Positions 4,347 through 59,683 of a DNA stretch of 64,000 bases are shown in pieces. Numbering within the stretch: the first letter of the stretch is position 1; each line of letters opens with the position of its first letter. Source of the DNA: Parcubacteria group bacterium M10-OD1-1 (lineage in GTDB: Bacteria; Patescibacteriota; Minisyncoccia; Moranbacterales; UBA2206); assembly GCA_003056145.1 (NCBI GenBank), contig LSNL01000003.1:4345-68344 (forward strand), given 5' to 3'. Under the pieces are notes generated by a model, which saw only the letters and a list, made by a program, of their open reading frames with translations, was not told where the DNA came from and did no database searches. The position numbers and the translations under genes are program-made.

Positions 4347-4859
4347 TTAGCTAGTTTTATTGGTAGCAATGGCTTTTTTAATGGCTTCTTTTTCTTCTTC
4401 TGTTAATGGATGTTTTTCTGATTGACCATTGATAATCTCCTTGGAATAAATTCTTGCTCCTTCTCTAGTGAAAAGAGAAGAAAGTGTTATTCCATCATTT
4501 TTGCCATTTAGTAGAGCGATTGAGAAGCTTTGGTTACCTCCTACATCCTTAAAAGGATTAAATCTTACTTGTCCAATTTTATGAAAACTTTTAAAAGCTA
4601 AATTATTGATTTGATTGGAAATATTATATAATTCTTGAATATCTTTATCTAATAATTGAAGAGACTTCGCTTGACTTAATAAAAGTTCTTCTAAGTTTTT
4701 AACTTTTTTTCCAGCAAATAAAATTGTCTTCTCTTTTTTAATAATTTGAAACTGAAGATAAAAAAATATATTCCAAGCTAAAAGTATTAAAAACAGAATT
4801 ATAAAAAAAACTAAAATTATTAGTAGATTATTTTGAATTAAGTTCTCCAAAGAAATCAT
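4347..4859 (-). CDS. hypothetical membrane-anchored protein (DUF4446-like)
   Basis: 170 aa. N-terminal transmembrane helix, coiled-coil middle and conserved C-terminal region. The family call is from memory and not verified. Confidence 0.4.
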   Translation of the reverse strand: MISLENLIQNNLLIILVFFIILFLILLAWNIFFYLQFQIIKKEKTILFAGKKVKNLEELLLSQAKSLQLLDKDIQELYNISNQINNLAFKSFHKIGQVRFNPFKDVGGNQSFSIALLNGKNDGITLSSLFTREGARIYSKEIINGQSEKHPLTEEEKEAIKKAIATNKTS

Positions 4860-5171
4860 AGTATTTACTAGCTTAATTTAGATATAAGACTAATTTTAGG
4901 CTAGCATTTATATTTCCTTATGTAAAGCTAAAAGAATTATAATTTGATTAATAATTAAATTTATAAATTCAGAATATTTAAACTACTATTTAAGGGTTGC
5001 ACTAATGCTTTATGCAAGTCAAATTCAAAAGAGTAAGCTATGTACAGAAGAATAGGGCATACAAATGATAAATAAAAGTCTGTCTTACGTTTAAGACGGG
5101 CTTTTATTATTGTGGGCGGTGTCGCCTGCTATCTACTTGACAGATATGAATAAATATGCTAGGATGTACTG

Positions 5172-5335
5172 AATAACAAATAAGTTATTTTTAAAACAAA
5201 CAAATAAATAAATTCTTTGAGGAGAGAGTTACAAACAACGAAAGCTTTATAGCGGTTGTTGTTTAAAGAAAACAGTTAAATGTTTTTCTCTCTTCAGGGA
5301 AGAAAGCATTTAACTGTTTTTTTTTATTTTAAAAA
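5172..5335 (+). ncRNA. candidate small RNA with sigma70-like promoter and intrinsic terminator
   Basis: TTGACA (5137-5142), 17 nt, TAGGAT (5160-5165). Perfect 12-bp terminator stem aacagttaaatg/catttaactgtt (5271-5282 / 5307-5318) followed by T-run 5319-5335. No ORF lies between them. Confidence 0.4.
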
Positions 5336-5439
5336 TATGAAAGACAGATTTTGTTGAAAGAATGATGCAGATGAAATGTGCTTGTTGACACAACTTAAAA
5401 TGATTAAAAGTTGTTAATCCAAGTTTTTATCTTCATCAT

Positions 5440-6640
5440 TCTCTCAATAAAGAGGAGAGAGAAGCTGTTCTTTATATCGAAATAAAATGCTGAAAATATA
5501 TACAAGACCTGCAAGCCTTGTCACTGTGTTGGATAGGTCGCCTTTCGACGGAAACCGATTGCCAATGGCACATTTTACAAATCGTTTTCGTAAGGAAATC
5601 GACTGGGAGTGAAGACTTGAACTATCTTCGCTTTCAGAAATTTCCTTATGAGCGCCTTGTTGTTTAACTCGCTGTGAGTACAACAAGACAATCTAGAGGA
5701 AAATGCTCTTTGAAAAAAAACAAAATCATCATAGGAAGCTATCACGATGGTTTTGTAAACAAAATTGGTACTTGGCAGATAGTCTGTTTGGTTACCGAAA
5801 AAATCAGGGCTAACAAATGCCCCCTTGCCGACATTTTCATGGATGTCGTGATAGCCGAGGTTTCCTAAGGAGGAAATATCATGAATCAAAGAAATACTGG
5901 GAAGGAAGTAGTGTCCTTCCTCTGGAAGGAAGAAGGACTTGATGCGATTTTTTCCGGTGTGTCGTTTAACGACACACCGGACGGCAACGTTTGCACCTTT
6001 CTTTTTAGAAAGCAAGGTGTGAACGACGTACCGATATATTATCGGTACGAAATATTTGAACGACGCGACAGGCGTCGTTCAAAAGGACTGATTTTGACAT
6101 TACTCTTTACGAGTAATGTCAGGTCTCGGGTTGAATGCGTTTCCTTTCTAAAATTTTTAGAAAGGAATGGCCTACTCATCAGAAGGGCTGATGGCCCTGC
6201 TGATGAGTACTATGCCGACCCAAGGTTTATCACCTGTCCGCGCTTTGTGCGGATAAGTGATAAAATGTCTTTGCATTCAGAATTGTTGACCCTGACAAAT
6301 GGGGAAACAATTCTAGTAGAAATCTGGGCTCACTACCCAGAATACGAAGATGAAAATGAAGGAGACTTCCGTATAAAAAACATATGCTGGTTCCCAAAGG
6401 GGCACCATAGTTTTGATACGGAGGAAAATCCTGTAATATTCGCAGGTTTCCTGCGAATATGCCAAAACGGTAATACCGTCTTTGTAGACGGTATTTATTT
6501 CAATAACCGTGGAGGGCGCCACGGTATAATCGAAGAAGCAATTGACACACCAACGGCTACCGAGTAACCCTCGGCTAGTCGACAAACGTCGAGAGGTCGA
6601 CACTAAACAAACCCCCGAGCGACGGTAAGACGCGTTCATG
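5440..6640 (+). ncRNA. hairpin-dense tract of unknown function, candidate large structured RNA or hairpin array. The strand is uncertain; plus is suggested by the downstream plus-strand terminator.
   Basis: At least 25 local inverted repeats, many perfect 9-13 bp with 3-7 nt loops. Examples are 5955-5981 (11 bp), 6027-6049 (10 bp), 6057-6081 (10 bp), 6095-6121 (11 bp), 6141-6167 (12-13 bp), 6436-6460 (11 bp), 5656-5690 (8 bp) and 5832-5851 (6 bp). GC is higher than the flanks. The chance expectation for perfect 9+ bp hairpins in about 1 kb is far below one. Confidence 0.45.
5881..6567 (+). CDS. doubtful ORF (228 aa) overlapping the hairpin-dense tract; probably not a real protein gene
   Basis: Long ORF with an apparent SD aaggagg, but that SD is itself the hairpin tttcct-aagg-aggaaa. 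The ORF is saturated with perfect hairpins, its composition is rich in F and R, and overlapping ORFs occur on both strands, consistent with stop-codon depletion in GC-richer DNA. Confidence 0.2.
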   Translation: MNQRNTGKEVVSFLWKEEGLDAIFSGVSFNDTPDGNVCTFLFRKQGVNDVPIYYRYEIFERRDRRRSKGLILTLLFTSNVRSRVECVSFLKFLERNGLLIRRADGPADEYYADPRFITCPRFVRISDKMSLHSELLTLTNGETILVEIWAHYPEYEDENEGDFRIKNICWFPKGHHSFDTEENPVIFAGFLRICQNGNTVFVDGIYFNNRGGRHGIIEEAIDTPTATE

Positions 6641-6694
6641 AAATAAAATTATCTTGGTGTGAGTCCACCTAAAAACTCACTGCAGAAAGTACTA

Positions 6695-6739
6695 GGGGAT
6701 GAGCTTTCTGTAAGTTCAAGTTCAATCATCCCCTTTTTT
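6695..6739 (+). terminator. intrinsic terminator-like hairpin
   Basis: Stem ggggatga (6695-6702) / tcatcccc (6726-6733) with a 23-nt loop, followed by tttttt (6734-6739). Confidence 0.4.
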
Positions 6740-6999
6740 CCGAAATCATCAGTTTGTTAAAAATTGGTGGTTTCAGAGAAAAGATGCTCTTTGAAAAAAA
6801 TCTACAATACCGCAAATTGGTTGTGAATATTTGAATGTGGGATTGTTTAATTGACAACTAATTTGCAGTATTGTAGAAAAAATCCAAAGCCGGCAGGGTG
6901 TCGGTGGAGGGTAAATATTAATTTGTCTGATGCAATAATGCTGAGGACAACGGCGATTTTTCGCCCCCTAACTCCGGGGCTCGGAGTGGAGGAAGTAAG

Positions 7000-7644
7000 A
7001 TGTCCAATCAAGTGATAACTTTTGATAAAGTTGTGTCTGAGGTGGTTGCCAGCAAGGCAATTAAAAGAAATAAATATAACATCTGCCGCACCTGGCATGG
7101 ATGGATATCGAAAGACGTCCTACATATTACTAGTAGCTCCGGGGCTCGGCGGCGGAAAATTTGGCATTTCCCTATTATAAGGAATGCTGGAAAGGAGATG
7201 TTTTTTAAAAACACGACGGTAACTGCTGATTGCTGGACAGTTATTCCGGCAAAACAAGAAAAAGATCCTTATGGGAGGATTTTGAGACAGTGTAAACAAT
7301 CAAAAAAATTTCTCCACAGACATCAGCCTGGAGAAGTTGTCTATCTCAAAGGGAGATGGGCATATCTTCACTGTCATGTCCCGGGAGAGTCATCGTTTTA
7401 TGTTTCGTTCGATTCGGATGAGACGATCTTCGAAGGGCCCCTGATAAATGTTCCTGGGGGGCATTTTCAATATCAGGATTGGGAAGTGACGCTGTCCAAG
7501 TCCACTTGGGCAGTTGTCAGAAAGGCGCATGCCGATTCAAACGGTCGCGTGCGTAACTTTATCGAGGCTCTCCATATTTGGGGAGAGCCGGATATAGAAG
7601 AGGTTGCCTCCGCTGTGAGGAGAGGAACATTTGGGAGGAGTTAA
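7000..7644 (+). CDS. hypothetical protein (214 aa), uncertain, within the GC-rich insert
   Basis: ATG preceded by ggaggaag SD at -7 and a hairpin actccg-gggct-cggagt. Fewer perfect hairpins than the upstream tract, and a terminator-like hairpin downstream. Composition is W/H-rich and random-like, and I recognise no family. Confidence 0.3.
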   Translation: MSNQVITFDKVVSEVVASKAIKRNKYNICRTWHGWISKDVLHITSSSGARRRKIWHFPIIRNAGKEMFFKNTTVTADCWTVIPAKQEKDPYGRILRQCKQSKKFLHRHQPGEVVYLKGRWAYLHCHVPGESSFYVSFDSDETIFEGPLINVPGGHFQYQDWEVTLSKSTWAVVRKAHADSNGRVRNFIEALHIWGEPDIEEVASAVRRGTFGRS

Positions 7645-7659
7645 AAAGCGGACTTTTGT

Positions 7660-7700
7660 GCAGGATTGATGATTAGTTCTCATTCAATCCTGCCTATTAT
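7660..7700 (+). terminator. terminator-like hairpin downstream of ORF 7000-7644
   Basis: Stem gcaggattga (7660-7669) / tcaatcctgc (7684-7693). The downstream U-tract is weak. Confidence 0.3.
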
Positions 7701-8227
7701 TGGGATTTTAATTTCTTAATTTAAATTGAAATTCCATAATGGGAAATTGTTTATATAAATATAAACAATACATACAAAATATCTCGGTAATGTGAGGTGT
7801 TTTGAGTGAAATGAGATTTGATTTGTAAAACTTTTCGTCTTTGTAATTTTACGAGGACAAGAAACTCTCTCCTCGAGATTTTATGGATTAAATTTCTTAC
7901 TAAACATTTACTCAAACATCTCATATTGTTGAGATAAAAACATCACCTTTAACACAATAGCTTTGGCTTAGTGGTAATGTAGTCTATCGTTGTTGAAGGT
8001 TTTTTTTGTTTCTATGGAATCGGGAATTATTACAGAAGCAGTGACTGCAAAAACAGTGCGCGCTTTATATATAAAGAAAGTTCAAATATCGTTCAAAAGG
8101 TATCGCTATCTTTGAATTTTTGCGTTTTTGGTAGAATTTTGAGTGGGGCTTTGCTCCGCGCAAAGTGCGACCGTGTCTCGTATACACAGGAAGAAATGAA
8201 AATCCCCCAAAACGCTGAAATTGTAAT

Positions 8228-8317
8228 TGGCGGAGGCGGGAGGATTCGAACCTCCGATACCGGTTAAGGTATAACGCTTTTCGAGAGCGCCCTATTCAAC
8301 CGCTCTAGCACGCCTCC
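8228..8317 (-). tRNA. tRNA-Ser (anticodon CGA), type II with long variable arm
   Basis: The reverse complement reads GGAGGCG...CTAG/D-loop...anticodon stem GCGCT/AGCGT with loop CTCGAAA (anticodon CGA)...long variable arm...GGAGG-TTCGAAT-CCTCC...CGCCTCC-G-CCA. The CCA is encoded. Confidence 0.8.
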
Positions 8318-8467
8318 TTTTCTCTCTTTTTAGTATCCTTGATTTTTATCTTTTTGGCAATAAGAAAAAGATGAAATCTAATTACAAATAAAAATAATTT
8401 TTAAGTTGTTGCTTTTAGAAATTTGTTGTAAAATATAAAAGTAAAATAAAAACAAATAAAAACAACG

Positions 8468-22498: not shown

Positions 22499-23347
22499 AT
22501 GAAAAAAGAATTGTTACTGGTGTGTCTGGTGTGTTGTCTAATGGTTTTTCCAAGTCAAAGTTTTGCTGATTCGTCAGGCGTTGGAATCGCTGGCGCTCAG
22601 GCTGTTATTAACGGAGGGGATGTCCAGGTGAATCCTGGGCAAGTTGTGTCTCCAAGTGCGAATGCGAATCTGAGTATCGATTCGCATTCGAAAGTGAGCA
22701 ATCGTAATTTTTTGCAGACGGGATATCCAGCGGCCCCAGCGCCGATGACTTACTTTGGCCCCTGGAAAAAGGGACTACCGTATAATGTAATCCAACTTGC
22801 AGTTGGATCGGTATGGAAGTGGGCAGGAATGAGGAAGGTATCTTCCAGTAGTGCTAAAGCACTGTTAGAAGATATCCAACATCCATTTCCGCCGACGGCA
22901 GAAATAAAAGTTGTCTCCCCTGAGAAAGGGGAGGGAACCTTTGTCGGCAATATTGTTGTCCTAGTTGACAGCAATCAAGCGAGCTTTAACGCTCGCAACA
23001 TAGCTCTAAAAGTAGCCATGAAGGCTGGTGCCGACCAGCTGGAAATCTATTCCAACAATTACATTCAGAAGCCAACTAGCTCTGGTTGGCATTTCGGTTT
23101 TGGCGGTGGTGCCTCGGGCATCATCGGCAATGATAGCACATCAATTGCAGGCTCAGGAGGAACCGGATTTGGATCCTCCAGCCTTCATTTGGCGAGCCTT
23201 CCATTTATTAAGGCCCGTCTTTGGAGGTCAGCTACTGCAGTTGATTTGGCCAGCGTCAGCGAAGACGAAAGCTATGCACCGGCGGTCAAAGCCAAATCTT
23301 CTAATGAGGATTGGCATATAAAAGACTTAAGTAATTTTGACAATTAA
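22499..23347 (+). CDS. secreted protein of unknown function (GC-rich, likely horizontally acquired)
   Basis: 282 aa. Signal peptide MKKELLLVCLVCCLMVFPSQSFA, SD ggagag upstream, and a Gly-rich C-region. Composition contrasts strongly with the flanking AT-rich genes. No family recognised. Confidence 0.5.
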   Translation: MKKELLLVCLVCCLMVFPSQSFADSSGVGIAGAQAVINGGDVQVNPGQVVSPSANANLSIDSHSKVSNRNFLQTGYPAAPAPMTYFGPWKKGLPYNVIQLAVGSVWKWAGMRKVSSSSAKALLEDIQHPFPPTAEIKVVSPEKGEGTFVGNIVVLVDSNQASFNARNIALKVAMKAGADQLEIYSNNYIQKPTSSGWHFGFGGGASGIIGNDSTSIAGSGGTGFGSSSLHLASLPFIKARLWRSATAVDLASVSEDESYAPAVKAKSSNEDWHIKDLSNFDN

Positions 23348-23472
23348 CAAAAAAGGAGGTGATTTTCAGAATTTTCAGTAAGTAACACGAGTAACATAAC
23401 ATTCTCCATTCCTAGTTGGGATGGAGGTAATTATGGGACATTCCCGTGTCCCGAACAAAAAAGGAGAAAGTC

Positions 23473-23901
23473 ATGAAAAAGATGTTATCAAAAATGGCAG
23501 TATCGATGTCAATTATTGCCCTGATTATGGTTGCCATCCCGGCTCTTGCCCAATCAGGAGGAAGTGTGGAGGGAGGTAATTCGTCCTGGCTGTCAGGCTT
23601 TGATAATGGCATTACCCACATCTCGGCCAATCAACGATCCTGGCAACAGACAGTTATCCAGGTACCCGGTCAAACATTTAACGCCGTTTCAAACAGCAAC
23701 ACCGGGTTCCAGCTGAATGCTGCCGATGGCGTAGCCGCCGCCGAAACAACTACAGATATAGGTTTTTACACTAATTCTAGTGGAAACCTGGGAGCCTTTT
23801 CTGATGCCAATGTGGCATCGATCGCTGCAGGTAACGCCATGAGCATTACCTGGGCAGCCTCAAATTCTTCCCTGAGCCAATATGGTGGCGGGGAGCGATA
23901 G
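23473..23901 (+). CDS. secreted protein of unknown function (GC-rich)
   Basis: Start set at ATG 23473 (MKKMLSKMAVSMSIIALIMVAIPALA signal peptide) with SD aaaggag 7 nt upstream. The listed ORF begins at an upstream GTG. A strong terminator follows. Confidence 0.45.
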   Translation: MKKMLSKMAVSMSIIALIMVAIPALAQSGGSVEGGNSSWLSGFDNGITHISANQRSWQQTVIQVPGQTFNAVSNSNTGFQLNAADGVAAAETTTDIGFYTNSSGNLGAFSDANVASIAAGNAMSITWAASNSSLSQYGGGER

Positions 23902-38952: not shown

Positions 38953-39447
38953 ATGAAGAAATTTACCATGATTTCAGCTATAGTTGTGATGAGTTGTTTT
39001 ATTGGTCTTATGGGTTGCAGGAGATTCACTCAACCAAAGGTCAGCAAGAAAATGGAAAGGGAGATGATCTCTAGCATATACATGGCTCCACCGTTAGTGT
39101 GGGTGGGATTACCTACTTCATGGATGGGGGGAATGGGAGGAGAATACTGTAAAATAGTTGAGCTCAATGCGTTCAGCTATGAAGTAGGGAAATCTCTAAA
39201 AGAAACTAACGGGGGCAAGCTCCCTGAGATGCTGGGCGCGCAATTCGAGAACGCATGGCCAGTAACTGCCCATGCGACTGGGATAGCGGGAGTCCAATGG
39301 CTCCCAAGAGGGGAAGGGAAGTTTAGTTATGTTGGAGGCAACAGTGGGAAACGATGGGTAAAAAAGAAGTTTAGTGGGGAGTGTCAGTTTATGCTGTATC
39401 ATGATATTTATGGCAAATGGAGGCTGGTACGCAACTGGCAGAATTAG
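38953..39447 (+). CDS. lipoprotein of unknown function (GC-rich insert)
   Basis: 164 aa. SD aggaggag, signal peptide plus lipobox LMGC, and GC-rich relative to recA and ndk. Confidence 0.5.
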   Translation: MKKFTMISAIVVMSCFIGLMGCRRFTQPKVSKKMEREMISSIYMAPPLVWVGLPTSWMGGMGGEYCKIVELNAFSYEVGKSLKETNGGKLPEMLGAQFENAWPVTAHATGIAGVQWLPRGEGKFSYVGGNSGKRWVKKKFSGECQFMLYHDIYGKWRLVRNWQN

Positions 39448-59026: not shown

Positions 59027-59683
59027 ATGAATGTTGTTATTTTAGGTCCGCAAGGATCTGGTAAGGGGACACAAGCTCAGCTAATCGCTGAGAAATTTGA
59101 CTTAGAACATATTGATATGGGGAAATTTCTTAGAGAAGTAGCCTTATTAAATACTCCTTTAGGAAAAGAGATTAACGAAATTATCAATATCAAAAAGGAA
59201 TTAGTAGATGATAAAATATTAAAAAAAGTCTTGCATTTAAAAATACAAGACTTGCCTAGGGAAAAAGGTATTATATTTGATGGAGTACCAAGGAGAGAAG
59301 ATCAGCTAGCTTATTTTGAGGAAGCGATGATTAAATTTGGACGCCAGGTTGATAGAGTAATCCTGATTAAGCTATCAGAAAAAGAATCTTTTCAAAGAAT
59401 AGCCAAAAGAAGAATTTGTGAAAAATGCAAAAAAGTTTTTATTTTAGGCAAAGATATTCAGAGTGAAACAGAAAAGTGTCCAGTTTGTTCAGGAAAAATA
59501 ATTCAGCGAATAGATGACACAGAAGAAGGAGTGAAGAAAAGGTTAAAAATTTTTCAACAAGAAACAATGCCTGTAATTAAATATTATGAAGCACAAGATA
59601 ATATTATTGAGATCAATGGTGATCAAATAATTAAAAAAGTGTTTAAAGATATTTTGAAACAACTAAAAAAAATTTATGATTAG
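59027..59683 (+). CDS. adk: adenylate kinase (zinc-lid type)
   Basis: 218 aa. P-loop GPQGSGKGTQA, and lid CEKC...CPVC. Confidence 0.85.
   Translation: MNVVILGPQGSGKGTQAQLIAEKFDLEHIDMGKFLREVALLNTPLGKEINEIINIKKELVDDKILKKVLHLKIQDLPREKGIIFDGVPRREDQLAYFEEAMIKFGRQVDRVILIKLSEKESFQRIAKRRICEKCKKVFILGKDIQSETEKCPVCSGKIIQRIDDTEEGVKKRLKIFQQETMPVIKYYEAQDNIIEINGDQIIKKVFKDILKQLKKIYD

What the first reader, a model, noticed from the sequence alone, without database searches (positions are those of the whole stretch)
4860..8227. GC-richer ~3.3 kb insert abutting the 3' end of tRNA-Ser, with no integrase
The window backbone is very AT-rich. From about 5040 to about 8220 the composition shifts to visibly higher GC, about 45% versus about 30-35% estimated by eye. 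The insert ends at the 3' end of tRNA-Ser(CGA) (8228-8317, minus strand). Integrative elements classically insert at tRNA 3' ends, yet no integrase, recombinase or transposase ORF is present, and I found no convincing direct repeat of the tRNA 3' end at the far side. The content is a putative sRNA, the hairpin-dense tract, two doubtful ORFs and terminator-like hairpins. This looks like a degraded or non-autonomous islet or a cargo-only remnant.
Basis: partly seen in the sequence, partly recalled or inferred. Interest (0 to 1): 0.6.

Follow-up and report, generated by a model that had tools for sequence, protein, structure and literature searches.

The report
Two-gene islet of hairpin-saturated orphan genes
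The GC-rich stretch beside tRNA-Ser in this Moranbacteria genome is a lineage-specific islet of two real protein-coding orphan genes whose coding sequences carry far more hairpins than their proteins require, not a decayed integrase-borne element or a giant RNA.

Summary
The composition shift is real but narrower than reported. The GC-rich core is 5440-7700 (42.8% GC against 31.5% elsewhere). AT-rich spacers of 580 nt and 527 nt separate it from the DUF4446 gene and from tRNA-Ser. In the closest Moranbacteria genomes the tRNA lies 54-143 nt from DUF4446, so the content is lineage-specific.

No integrase and no att repeat were found.

The "doubtful ORFs" are genes:
- ORF2 (7000-7644) belongs to an uncharacterised modular protein family of 35 clusters. 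Its AlphaFold model has pLDDT 95.7 and no fold relatives. It has a conserved leader that sequesters the ribosome-binding site.
- ORF1 (5881-6567) is an orphan. It sits on a 1,081-bp cassette bounded by a 17-bp direct repeat, and a 99.8%-identical genome lacks that cassette.

The "hairpin-dense tract" is ORF1's coding sequence. Both genes, ORF2 homologues in other Patescibacteria and three other GC3-rich orphan genes in this window fold far better than synonymous-codon shuffles (z about -2 to -22). Host genes mostly do not.

Hairpin positions are not conserved between homologues, and the excess is usually larger on the sense strand. I infer selection for heavily folded mRNA. The purpose of that folding, and the proteins' functions, remain unknown.

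The parts
4860..5439 (.). AT-rich spacer (27% GC) between the DUF4446 start codon and the GC-rich core. It holds small hairpin/terminator-like units (5071-5108; 5265-5324 followed by a T-run) and a promoter-like site (5137-5165). It has no counterpart in the 54-143 nt spacers of the closest relatives.
5440..5702 (+). Left edge of the GC-rich core. It is a hairpin-rich non-coding stretch upstream of the cassette repeat and is retained in the genome that lacks the ORF1 cassette.
5703..5719 (+). Left copy of the 17-bp direct repeat ATGCTCTTTGAAAAAAA. It marks the left boundary of the 1,081-bp ORF1 cassette indel.
5720..5880 (+). ORF1 5' untranslated region, with Shine-Dalgarno GGAGG at 5869-5873, 7 nt before the ATG.
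   Evidence: sequence read directly
5881..6567 (+). ORF1, a 228-aa orphan gene and the 'hairpin-dense tract'. Seven perfect hairpins with 10-13 bp stems lie at 5953-5981, 6027-6049, 6055-6083, 6095-6121, 6141-6167, 6436-6460 and 6472-6495, among many near-perfect ones.
   Evidence: - Hairpins and folding: z -17.1; z -11 against synonymous shuffles.
- Coding: (pN/pS 0.32; two in-frame indels relative to L006).
- Structure prediction from the single sequence was uninformative.
6695..6739 (+). Terminator-like hairpin (GGGGATGA...TCATCCCC) followed by T6, downstream of ORF1.
   Evidence: sequence read directly
6784..6800 (+). Right copy of the 17-bp direct repeat. In L007 a single copy joins 5719 to 6801.
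6801..6877 (+). 28-nt inverted repeat (6801-6828 / 6850-6877) that encloses a TTGACA hexamer (6852-6857). This is the likely ORF2 promoter region.
   Evidence: - Inverted repeat: (I1).
- TTGACA hexamer.
- By analogy, L001/L002 have a TTGACA-17-TACAAT promoter upstream of the homologue.
6952..6999 (+). Conserved ORF2-family leader. P1 hairpin 6952-6965; CCU 6967-6969 pairing with AGG 6990-6992 of the Shine-Dalgarno GGAGG (6988-6992); P2 hairpin ACUCCG/CGGAGU 6971-6987.
   Evidence: -.
- The covariance model finds it only upstream of family genes in 1.07 Mb searched.
- No Rfam match.
7000..7644 (+). ORF2, 214 aa, a member of an uncharacterised modular protein family. It has a conserved N-domain (residues 1-85, motif HTWxGWxSK..LH..S.SGA...IWHF) and one of at least two alternative C-domains.
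   Evidence: (pLDDT 95.7)
7660..7693 (+). Terminator-like hairpin GCAGGATTGA...TCAATCCTGC after ORF2.
   Evidence: sequence read directly
7701..8227 (.). AT-rich spacer (32% GC) between the GC-rich core and the tRNA 3' end. No ORF with support and no att-like repeat.
8228..8317 (-). tRNA-Ser(cga). It is the conserved neighbour of DUF4446-infB across Moranbacteria.

Best explanation
What it is. The interval is a lineage-specific accessory islet in a Candidatus Moranbacteria (Patescibacteria) chromosome. Its foreign-looking core (5440-7700) holds two independent monocistronic expression cassettes, on the strand opposite to the flanking tRNA-Ser, DUF4446 and infB genes. Each cassette has its own leader, a strong Shine-Dalgarno, an ORF and a terminator-like hairpin.

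Shown by tool results:
- Both ORFs encode proteins.
- ORF2 belongs to a rare modular family that travels with its own leader, which pairs with the ribosome-binding site.
- The ORF1 cassette is gained or lost as a 1,081-bp unit between 17-bp direct repeats in near-identical genomes.
- The hairpins lie inside the coding sequences and exceed what synonymous-codon shuffles give.
- The excess recurs in homologues in other hosts, but at different positions.
- It is larger in kcal/mol on the sense strand in all eight genes tested, though by z-score in only five.

Inferred:
- The hairpins reflect selection on the mRNAs for dense local folding. The likely benefit is to keep the transcript intact in these AT-rich hosts, for example against single-strand-specific endoribonucleases such as MazF or against Rho loading.
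- The elevated GC is partly a consequence of that folding and partly a mark of recent acquisition.
- Arrival and turnover occur by recombination after DNA uptake and by short-repeat recombination, not by a tRNA-targeting integrase.
- The tRNA adjacency is incidental.

The biochemical function of both proteins is unknown.

The confidence given (0.55) is for the whole statement. That it is a two-gene coding accessory islet without integrase-mediated tRNA integration I put at about 0.8. That the hairpins are selected in the mRNA I put at about 0.45. Any specific benefit I put at 0.2 or less.
For: Insert status:
- The order SBP-MTase-tRNA-Ser(cga)-DUF4446-infB is conserved in about 35 Moranbacteria loci. 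The tRNA-to-DUF4446 gap is 54-143 nt in the six closest loci with a short gap, against 3,368 nt here.

Composition:
- 42.8% against 31.5% GC; GC3 0.43-0.44 against 0.14-0.27; largest tetranucleotide distance in the window.

Coding:
- Two ORFs of at least 214 aa arose in 0 of 2000 shuffles.
- ORF2 has 35 representative clusters and 53% identity over the N-domain with conservative changes.
- Differences to homologues by codon position are 0.33/0.23/0.57.
- The AlphaFold model has pLDDT 95.7 and pTM 0.83.
- ORF1 has a Shine-Dalgarno 7 nt upstream. Both indels inside the ORF relative to L006 are in frame (6 and 3 nt); the two outside it are 1 nt. pN/pS is 0.32, P=0.03.

Cassette turnover:
- L007 is 99.6-99.8% identical and lacks exactly 5720-6800 minus one repeat copy. 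The 17-mer occurs nowhere else in the window.

Hairpins:
- Seven of the window's 30 perfect hairpins (stem of 8 bp or more) lie within 543 nt of ORF1.
- z against dinucleotide shuffles is -17.1 for ORF1, -6.0 for ORF2 and +0.6 for a control gene.
- z against synonymous shuffles is -11 to -22 for ORF1, -3.7 to -5.7 for ORF2 and -4.5 to -16 for eight of nine homologues. Host genes lie near 0, including host genes at 45% GC.
- Only 1-9% of predicted pairs are shared between homologues.
- The sense-strand excess in kcal/mol is at least as large as the antisense excess in 8 of 8 genes.
- Substitutions are depleted in the perfect hairpins: 1 of 24 against 4.7 expected, P=0.04.

Leader:
-.

No mobile-element hallmarks:
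-.
Against: - Third-position GC outside strong helices is still 0.37-0.40. Folding alone therefore does not explain the composition, and a foreign source is also needed.
- For ORF1, L001, L012 and the 282-aa islet gene, antisense z-scores are as extreme as sense z-scores. A DNA-level or mutational (template-switch) origin of the perfect palindromes is not excluded.
- One homologue in a GC-rich host (L013) shows no excess folding.
- ORF1 has no homologue beyond a 95%-identical copy, and its single-sequence structure prediction failed (pLDDT 32). Its coding status rests on modest statistics.
- No expression data exist.
- The proposed benefit of folding (RNase or Rho evasion) is untested.
- The closest relatives share only 74-77% infB identity, so the timing and route of acquisition are unknown.
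Confidence: 0.55

Rival explanations
1. Degraded or non-autonomous integrative element that entered at the 3' end of tRNA-Ser and then lost its integrase and att sites.
For: - It lies next to a tRNA 3' end, has foreign composition and is absent from the closest relatives.
- A second GC-rich islet in the window lies about 500 nt downstream of tRNA-Pro and tRNA-Gly.
Against: - No integrase in the interval or in annotated neighbours.
- The best matches to the tRNA 3' half are no better than in shuffles.
- 527 nt of host-like AT-rich DNA lie between the tRNA and the GC-rich core.
- ORF2-family genes in longer contigs (L095, L100) have no tRNA and no recombinase nearby, and there are none in viral contigs.
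- The same gap holds groES-groEL at host GC in L024, L026 and L045.
Confidence: 0.12
2. The ORF1 cassette, and perhaps each cassette, is a small mobile unit. It would insert and excise as a circle of about 1.08 kb by site-specific recombination at the 17-bp core ATGCTCTTTGAAAAAAA, using a recombinase supplied in trans, in the manner of an integron cassette or a Xer-dependent element.
For: - A precise presence/absence polymorphism bounded by exact 17-bp direct repeats, extended to about 24 of 26 nt.
- The cassette is self-contained, with a leader, ORF and terminator.
- Family genes travel with their own leader between hosts.
Against: - Only one event has been seen.
- Recombination or replication slippage between 17-bp repeats would give the same product.
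- The 17-mer occurs at no other site in the window or in 101 loci except the L007 junction.
- The repeat lacks the GTTRRRY integron core, as read from the sequence. attC structure and Xer/dif-like arms were not tested.
- No recombinase was identified.
- L006, which is 96% identical, carries the cassette at the same left junction. This fits an old resident that was deleted in L007.
Confidence: 0.12
3. The GC-rich core is one or two giant structured non-coding RNAs of the GOLLD, ROOL or OLE kind, and the ORFs are accidental.
For: - GC-rich islands in AT-rich genomes often mark structured RNAs (established knowledge).
- Folding z-scores are extreme.
- ORF1 has no distant homologues and no confident structure model.
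Against: - No Rfam family matches even at E up to 10.
- Two long same-strand ORFs arose in 0 of 2000 shuffles.
- ORF2 is a well-folded protein family with a coding substitution pattern.
- ORF1 shows in-frame indels and an excess of synonymous changes.
- Hairpin positions are not conserved between ORF2 homologues, unlike a functional RNA architecture.
Confidence: 0.05
4. The hairpins are a neutral by-product of mutation. Short-range template switching would convert quasi-palindromes into perfect ones in a recombination-prone, recently acquired segment. They would not result from selection on RNA.
For: - Many stems are perfect Watson-Crick.
- Antisense z-scores equal sense z-scores in ORF1, L001, L012 and the 282-aa islet gene.
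- The segment shows indel turnover.
- At 7566-7589 the hairpin is kept in L012 through swapped amino acids, A..E against E..A. A two-arm conversion event would produce that.
Against: - Host genes in the same genome show no excess. A genome-wide mutational bias is therefore excluded, and the bias would have to be local.
- In ORF2, L008, L095 and L100 the excess depends on G-U pairs and is clearly stronger on the sense strand. Template switching cannot produce that.
- Substitutions are depleted in the perfect hairpins.
- The trait recurs in homologues residing in different hosts.
Confidence: 0.15

Closest known systems
Small genomic islets of orphan genes (strain-specific accessory DNA without mobility genes)
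   Same: - Atypical GC and codon usage.
- Absent from the syntenic site in relatives.
- Varies between strains.
- Carries genes with no known function.
- No integrase.
   Different: - Each gene is a complete cassette with its own leader and terminator.
- The coding sequences are saturated with hairpins encoded at synonymous sites.
- The same signature marks every GC3-rich orphan gene in the window and the homologues in other hosts.
tRNA-targeted integrative elements and genomic islands
   Same: It lies next to the 3' end of a tRNA gene and has foreign composition.
   Different: - No integrase.
- No duplication of the tRNA 3' end.
- The foreign core starts 527 nt from the tRNA.
- Relatives of the cargo gene are not near tRNAs elsewhere.
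[quoted passage not shown] 2019, PMC6649704)
   Same: Perfect inverted repeats embedded in protein-coding sequence, with both arms translated. Protein coding and stringent secondary structure are preserved together (abstract read).
   Different: - Those are up to 284 bp, in conserved respiratory genes of animal mitochondria.
- Here there are many short hairpins (stems of 8-14 bp) in bacterial orphan genes, and their positions are not conserved between homologues.
Integron gene cassettes
   Same: A promoter-independent unit of about 1 kb carrying a single ORF, present or absent between strains and bounded by a repeated sequence.
   Different: - No IntI was seen among the annotated neighbours.
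- The 17-bp repeat does not contain the GTTRRRY core. attC structure was not tested.
- The cassettes appear to carry their own expression signals.
Large ornate non-coding RNAs (GOLLD, ROOL, OLE, HEARO)
   Same: A GC-rich, highly structured island in an AT-rich genome, near a tRNA.
   Different: - No Rfam match.
- Long ORFs with protein-level conservation.
- The structure is a string of local hairpins that is not conserved between homologues.
Leaders that sequester the Shine-Dalgarno (RNA thermometers, riboswitch expression platforms)
   Same: The ORF2-family leader pairs a conserved CCU with the AGG of the Shine-Dalgarno across a conserved hairpin. It is preceded by a hairpin whose sequence covaries between hosts.
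   Different: - No Rfam family matches.
- No ligand or signal is known.
- The motif occurs only upstream of this protein family.

Membership tests
tRNA-targeted integrative element / genomic island | Encodes, or retains a remnant of, a tyrosine or serine recombinase | tested here: not met
   - No recombinase-like ORF in 4860-8227.
- No Pfam, PHROG, PADLOC or NCBIfam hit for ORF1 or ORF2.
- The annotated neighbours in L007 contain none.
tRNA-targeted integrative element / genomic island | Direct repeat of the tRNA 3' end (attL/attR) at the far border | tested here: not met
   The best ungapped matches to the tRNA 3' 50 nt (11/14, 13/18, 15/24) are no better than the maxima in shuffled sequence (means 11.2, 12.9 and 15.3).
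tRNA-targeted integrative element / genomic island | Foreign DNA begins at the tRNA 3' end | tested here: not met
   7701-8227 (527 nt next to the tRNA) is 32.4% GC, like the host. The GC-rich core ends near 7700.
tRNA-targeted integrative element / genomic island | Absent from the same site in related genomes, with atypical composition | tested here: met
   - The gap is 54-143 nt in the six closest loci with a short gap, against 3,368 nt here.
- GC, GC3 and tetranucleotide deviation.
Integron gene cassette | attC recombination site with the GTTRRRY core at cassette boundaries, and an IntI integrase with attI nearby | tested here: not met
   - The boundaries are a 17-bp direct repeat, ATGCTCTTTGAAAAAAA, which does not contain the GTTRRRY core.
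- attC structure itself was not analysed.
- No integrase among annotated neighbours.
Large structured non-coding RNA families in Rfam (GOLLD, ROOL, OLE, HEARO and others) | Match to the family covariance model | tested here: not met
   Only the tRNA passes. Nothing meaningful appears at E up to 10 in 4700-8400.
Large structured non-coding RNA (any) | Secondary structure conserved between homologues, with no protein-coding constraint | tested here: not met
   - 1-9% of predicted pairs are shared between ORF2 homologues.
- Third-codon positions diverge about twice as fast as first and second positions.
- AlphaFold pLDDT 95.7.
Dispersed palindromic repeats (REP/BIME, MITE, Rickettsia palindromic elements) | The same palindromic unit is repeated at many genomic sites | tested here: not met
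   - No blastn-short hit (E<0.01) of 4860-8227 to the rest of the 64-kb window.
- Every hairpin has a different sequence.
Coding palindromes (as in Nematomorpha mitochondria) | Perfect inverted repeats inside a translated ORF, with both arms coding | tested here: met
   Seven perfect hairpins with 10-13 bp stems lie inside ORF1. This is a shared feature, not shared ancestry.
ORF2 protein family (unnamed; HTWxGWxSK N-domain) | Significant sequence match over the N-domain, including the invariant residues | tested here: met
   - 35 clusters with E<=1e-3, 27 of them with E<=1e-10.
- 18 invariant columns in the N-domain alignment.
Phage or defence-system protein families | Match to PHROGs or PADLOC profiles, or presence on viral contigs | tested here: not met
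   - No PHROG or PADLOC hit for ORF1, ORF2 or four family members.
- No relative in IMG/VR contigs.
- No fold match in BFVD (TM about 0.2).

The most novel reading that the evidence does not exclude
Patescibacteria carry a previously undescribed class of self-contained 'hairpin-armoured' gene cassettes. These would be GC3-rich orphan genes, each with its own leader and terminator, whose mRNAs are saturated with lineage-specific hairpins written into synonymous sites. The hairpins would be maintained by selection, for example to survive single-strand-specific RNases or toxins, Rho, or the single-stranded stage of natural transformation. The cassettes would move between genomes without dedicated recombinases and be gained or lost as units at short direct repeats.
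Probability: 0.2. Interest if true: 0.7.

Novelty: new variant of a known kind. Interest (0 to 1): 0.5.

Why it matters
If the pattern holds more widely, a simple sequence signature would flag a distinct class of accessory genes in the poorly understood candidate phyla radiation. The signature is raised third-position GC together with folding far beyond synonymous-codon shuffles.

It would also give a bacterial example of protein-coding sequence shaped as strongly by nucleic-acid structure as by the protein. That makes questions about mRNA survival, silencing of foreign genes and recombinase-free gene flow in these reduced episymbionts directly testable.

It further yields a confidently folded protein family with no structural relatives, and a candidate translational control leader.

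As a tRNA-adjacent islet alone, the finding is ordinary.

Tried and rejected
- Rfam at gathering and at E up to 10 found nothing but the tRNA.
- Pfam, PHROGs, PADLOC and NCBIfam gave no hits for ORF1, ORF2 or the family members tested.
- The PDB sequence profile search found nothing.
- ORF1 is not related to ORF2 or to any domain of the family. No pseudogene fragments of the family occur elsewhere in the window.
- ORF1 single-sequence structure prediction was uninformative (pLDDT 32).
- The exact leader pattern had no hits in viral or genome collections. The full-length alignment A3 was too divergent for locus search, so the N-domain alignment A5 was used instead.
- An att repeat of the tRNA 3' end was searched for and not found.
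- An obelisk-like or viroid-like reading of the 1.08-kb cassette was rejected, because the fold is a string of local hairpins and not a rod and the cassette is DNA-encoded in two assemblies.
- The idea that high GC is merely the stems was rejected, because GC3 outside helices is 0.37-0.40.
- The idea that this site is a general hotspot for mobile elements was rejected, because the larger gaps in other Moranbacteria hold groES-groEL and other host-composition genes.
- Literature searches for the assemblies and for this phenomenon in Patescibacteria found nothing relevant.

Full report
OBSERVATION

ARAGORN and Rfam place tRNA-Ser(cga) at 8228-8317 on the minus strand. Sliding-window GC rises to 0.40-0.455 only between about 5500 and 7700.

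Computed directly:
- The core 5440-7700 is 42.8% GC, against 31.5% for the rest of the window.
- 4860-5439 is 27.1% GC and 7701-8227 is 32.4% GC.
- The core has the largest tetranucleotide distance from the rest of the window (0.466; median 0.19).

The shift is therefore real. It covers 2.26 kb, not 3.3 kb, and it does not abut the tRNA. No integrase-like ORF is present. The best matches to the tRNA 3' half are no better than in shuffled sequence.

THE REGION IS AN INSERT RELATIVE TO RELATIVES

A genome-collection scan with infB identified the organism as a Candidatus Moranbacteria (Patescibacteria). The best relatives share 74-77% infB identity.

In about 35 Moranbacteria loci the order SBP, methyltransferase, tRNA-Ser(cga), DUF4446, infB is conserved. 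In six of the closest loci (L015, L017, L018, L019, L022, L023) the tRNA 3' end lies 54-143 nt from DUF4446. Here the gap is 3,368 nt. None of these loci encodes a relative of ORF1 or ORF2.

Larger gaps occur in other Moranbacteria, but they hold groES-groEL or other genes at host GC. The site is therefore not a dedicated landing pad for mobile elements.

THE ORFS ARE GENES

Two same-strand ORFs fill the core: 5881-6567 (228 aa) and 7000-7644 (214 aa). Each is preceded by GGAGG 7 nt upstream. ORFs of this length arose in 0.05% of 2000 dinucleotide shuffles of the core, and two of them never arose.

ORF2:
- It has an identical copy in a second assembly (L007).
- An exhaustive HMMER search found 35 representative clusters.
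- The family is modular. A conserved N-domain of about 85 aa (HTWxGWxSK..LH..S.SGA...IWHF..FKNTT) is joined to at least two alternative C-domains and to optional extensions of about 220 aa.
- Differences to homologues by codon position are 0.33/0.23/0.57.
- AlphaFold2 with the 35-sequence alignment gives pLDDT 95.7 and pTM 0.83, with two beta-rich domains.
- No Pfam, NCBIfam, PHROG, PADLOC or PDB-sequence match was found.

ORF1:
- It is an orphan with one 95%-identical relative, on a 934-bp contig (L006).
- Both indels inside the ORF are in frame (6 and 3 nt). The two outside it are 1 nt.
- 7 of 15 substitutions are synonymous, giving pN/pS 0.32 (P=0.03).
- Its single-sequence structure prediction was uninformative.

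CASSETTE-LEVEL VARIATION

L007 comes from a different assembly of a 99.6-99.8% identical genome. It lacks the ORF1 unit precisely. One copy of the 17-bp repeat ATGCTCTTTGAAAAAAA joins 5719 to 6801, whereas the window has copies at 5703-5719 and 6784-6800, 1,081 bp apart. The 17-mer occurs nowhere else in the window or in the other loci.

L006 (96% identical) carries the cassette with the same left junction. I therefore favour deletion in the L007 lineage by recombination between the short repeats. Site-specific excision is not excluded.

THE HAIRPIN TRACT IS CODING SEQUENCE

Seven of the window's 30 perfect hairpins with stems of at least 8 bp lie within 543 nt of ORF1.

| Gene | z against dinucleotide shuffles | z against synonymous-codon shuffles |
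|---|---|---|
| ORF1 | -17.1 | -11 to -22 |
| ORF2 | -6.0 | -3.7 to -5.7 |
| Neighbouring methyltransferase gene | +0.6 | near 0 |

The synonymous-codon shuffles keep both the protein and the codon usage.

Wider pattern:
- Eight of nine ORF2-family or co-islet genes from other hosts give z of -4.5 to -16. Their host neighbours give about 0 to -1.3, including host genes at 45% GC. The exception is L013, which sits in a GC-rich host.
- Across all 48 ORFs of at least 140 aa in the window, five have GC3 above 0.4: ORF1, ORF2, 22499-23347, 23446-23901 and 38953-39447.
- Those five are among the six with the largest excess folding energy. The sixth is the adenylate kinase gene.

Nature of the signal:
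- Predicted pairs are not shared between ORF2 homologues (1-9%). No specific RNA architecture is conserved.
- The excess over shuffles in kcal/mol is at least as large on the sense strand as on the antisense strand in all eight genes tested.
- In ORF2, L008, L095 and L100 the excess depends on G-U pairs. In ORF1, L001, L012 and the 282-aa gene it is nearly symmetric.
- Substitutions between the window and L006 are depleted in the perfect hairpins: 1 of 24 against 4.7 expected, P=0.04.
- GC3 outside strong helices is still 0.37-0.40. Folding alone does not account for the composition.

LEADER

Upstream of ORF2 and of its homologues in eight loci there is a conserved 5' untranslated region with three parts:
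- a hairpin whose sequence differs in every host;
- CCU, which pairs with the AGG of the Shine-Dalgarno;
- between them, the hairpin CUCCGGGGYUCGGAG, whose closing pair covaries (A-U, G-C, U-A).

This rests. A covariance model finds the motif only upstream of family genes in 1.07 Mb of window and loci. Rfam has no match. The gene and its translational control element therefore move together.

CONTEXTS OF THE FAMILY

- The longer contigs (L095, L099/L100) are chromosomal and look like Patescibacteria. They carry type IV pilus genes, a GNAT-domain protein, TrmB-type regulators and, in L100, a MazF/PemK toxin. They have no tRNA, integrase or phage genes.
- In every host the family gene is 5-15 GC points above its surroundings.
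- No relative occurs in IMG/VR viral contigs.

INTERPRETATION

The data show a lineage-specific two-gene accessory islet built from self-contained cassettes. The coding sequences carry nucleic-acid structure beyond what the proteins require.

I infer the following:
- The structure is selected in the mRNA. The excess appears against synonymous shuffles, involves sense-strand G-U pairs, recurs in different hosts at different positions, and the hairpins are depleted in substitutions.
- Its role is to protect or stabilise transcripts of foreign-type genes in these AT-rich cells.
- Acquisition did not involve a tRNA-targeting integrase.

Rivals retained with lower weight:
- a decayed tRNA-integrating element;
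- site-specific cassette mobility at the 17-bp repeat;
- neutral template-switch mutation creating the perfect palindromes;
- a giant non-coding RNA.

COMPARISON WITH KNOWN SYSTEMS

The closest published analogue for perfect inverted repeats inside translated genes is the coding palindromes of Nematomorpha mitochondria (PMC6649704). That is a different genetic system with much longer repeats.

As a tRNA-adjacent GC-rich islet without an integrase, the finding is ordinary. The unusual parts are the hairpin-saturated coding sequences, their association with every GC3-rich orphan gene in the window and with homologues elsewhere, the fold-orphan protein family, and its private leader.

Noticed in passing
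window 22499-23901: A second GC-rich islet (GC 0.44-0.48, GC3 0.43-0.49) lies about 500 nt downstream of tRNA-Pro(tgg) and tRNA-Gly(tcc). It has two orphan ORFs (282 aa and 151 aa) with signal-peptide-like N-termini and no Pfam or NCBIfam hit. Both are over-folded against synonymous shuffles (z -6 to -7.5 and -1.6 to -3.3).
   Followed up: partly
window 38953-39447: A third GC3-rich (0.49) orphan ORF of 164 aa, with a lipoprotein-like N-terminus, lies directly after recA. It is also over-folded (z -2.2 to -3.4) and has no family match.
   Followed up: partly
window 6952-6999; also L001 132-196, L008 448-511, L011 14-77, L012 100-167, L013 339-405, L100 6604-6674, L101 374-438: Conserved 5' leader of the ORF2 family. 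It consists of a covarying hairpin, CCU pairing with the Shine-Dalgarno, and the hairpin CUCCGGGGYUCGGAG. It is absent from Rfam and is found only upstream of this family. It is a candidate translational control element.
   Followed up: yes
window 5137-5333: A promoter-like site (TTGACA-17-TAGGAT with an upstream TG) is followed about 100 nt later by a 29-bp-arm hairpin and a T-run (5265-5333). A separate terminator-like hairpin lies at 5071-5108. Together they look like a short independent transcription unit in the AT-rich spacer.
   Followed up: no
window 7566-7589 versus L012 (homologous codons): The same hairpin position is kept in two homologues through swapped amino acids: E-A-L-H-I-W-G-E-P against K-E-L-H-I-W-G-A-P. 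Here the protein sequence appears to have changed on both arms in a way that preserves base pairing.
   Followed up: partly
L024 3484-6703, L026 6547-9440, L045 7159-9458: In some Moranbacteria groES-groEL lies between tRNA-Ser(cga) and DUF4446, at host GC. Gene order at this junction is therefore fluid for ordinary reasons as well.
   Followed up: partly
L100 4608-5922; L095 8189-8953: TrmB-family regulators lie divergently upstream of the ORF2-family gene in two unrelated contigs. L100 also has a MazF/PemK toxin gene between them.
   Followed up: no
window 59027-59683: The adenylate kinase gene has host-like GC3 (0.21) but an unusually negative folding z-score against synonymous shuffles (-5.2). 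It is the only host-type gene to stand out.
   Followed up: no
L095 9371-9817; L001 813-1172: Small orphan ORFs next to ORF2-family genes (148 aa upstream in L095; 119 aa overlapping downstream in L001) share the over-folded signature (z -5.6 and -5.1). The islets in other hosts also hold more than one such gene.
   Followed up: partly
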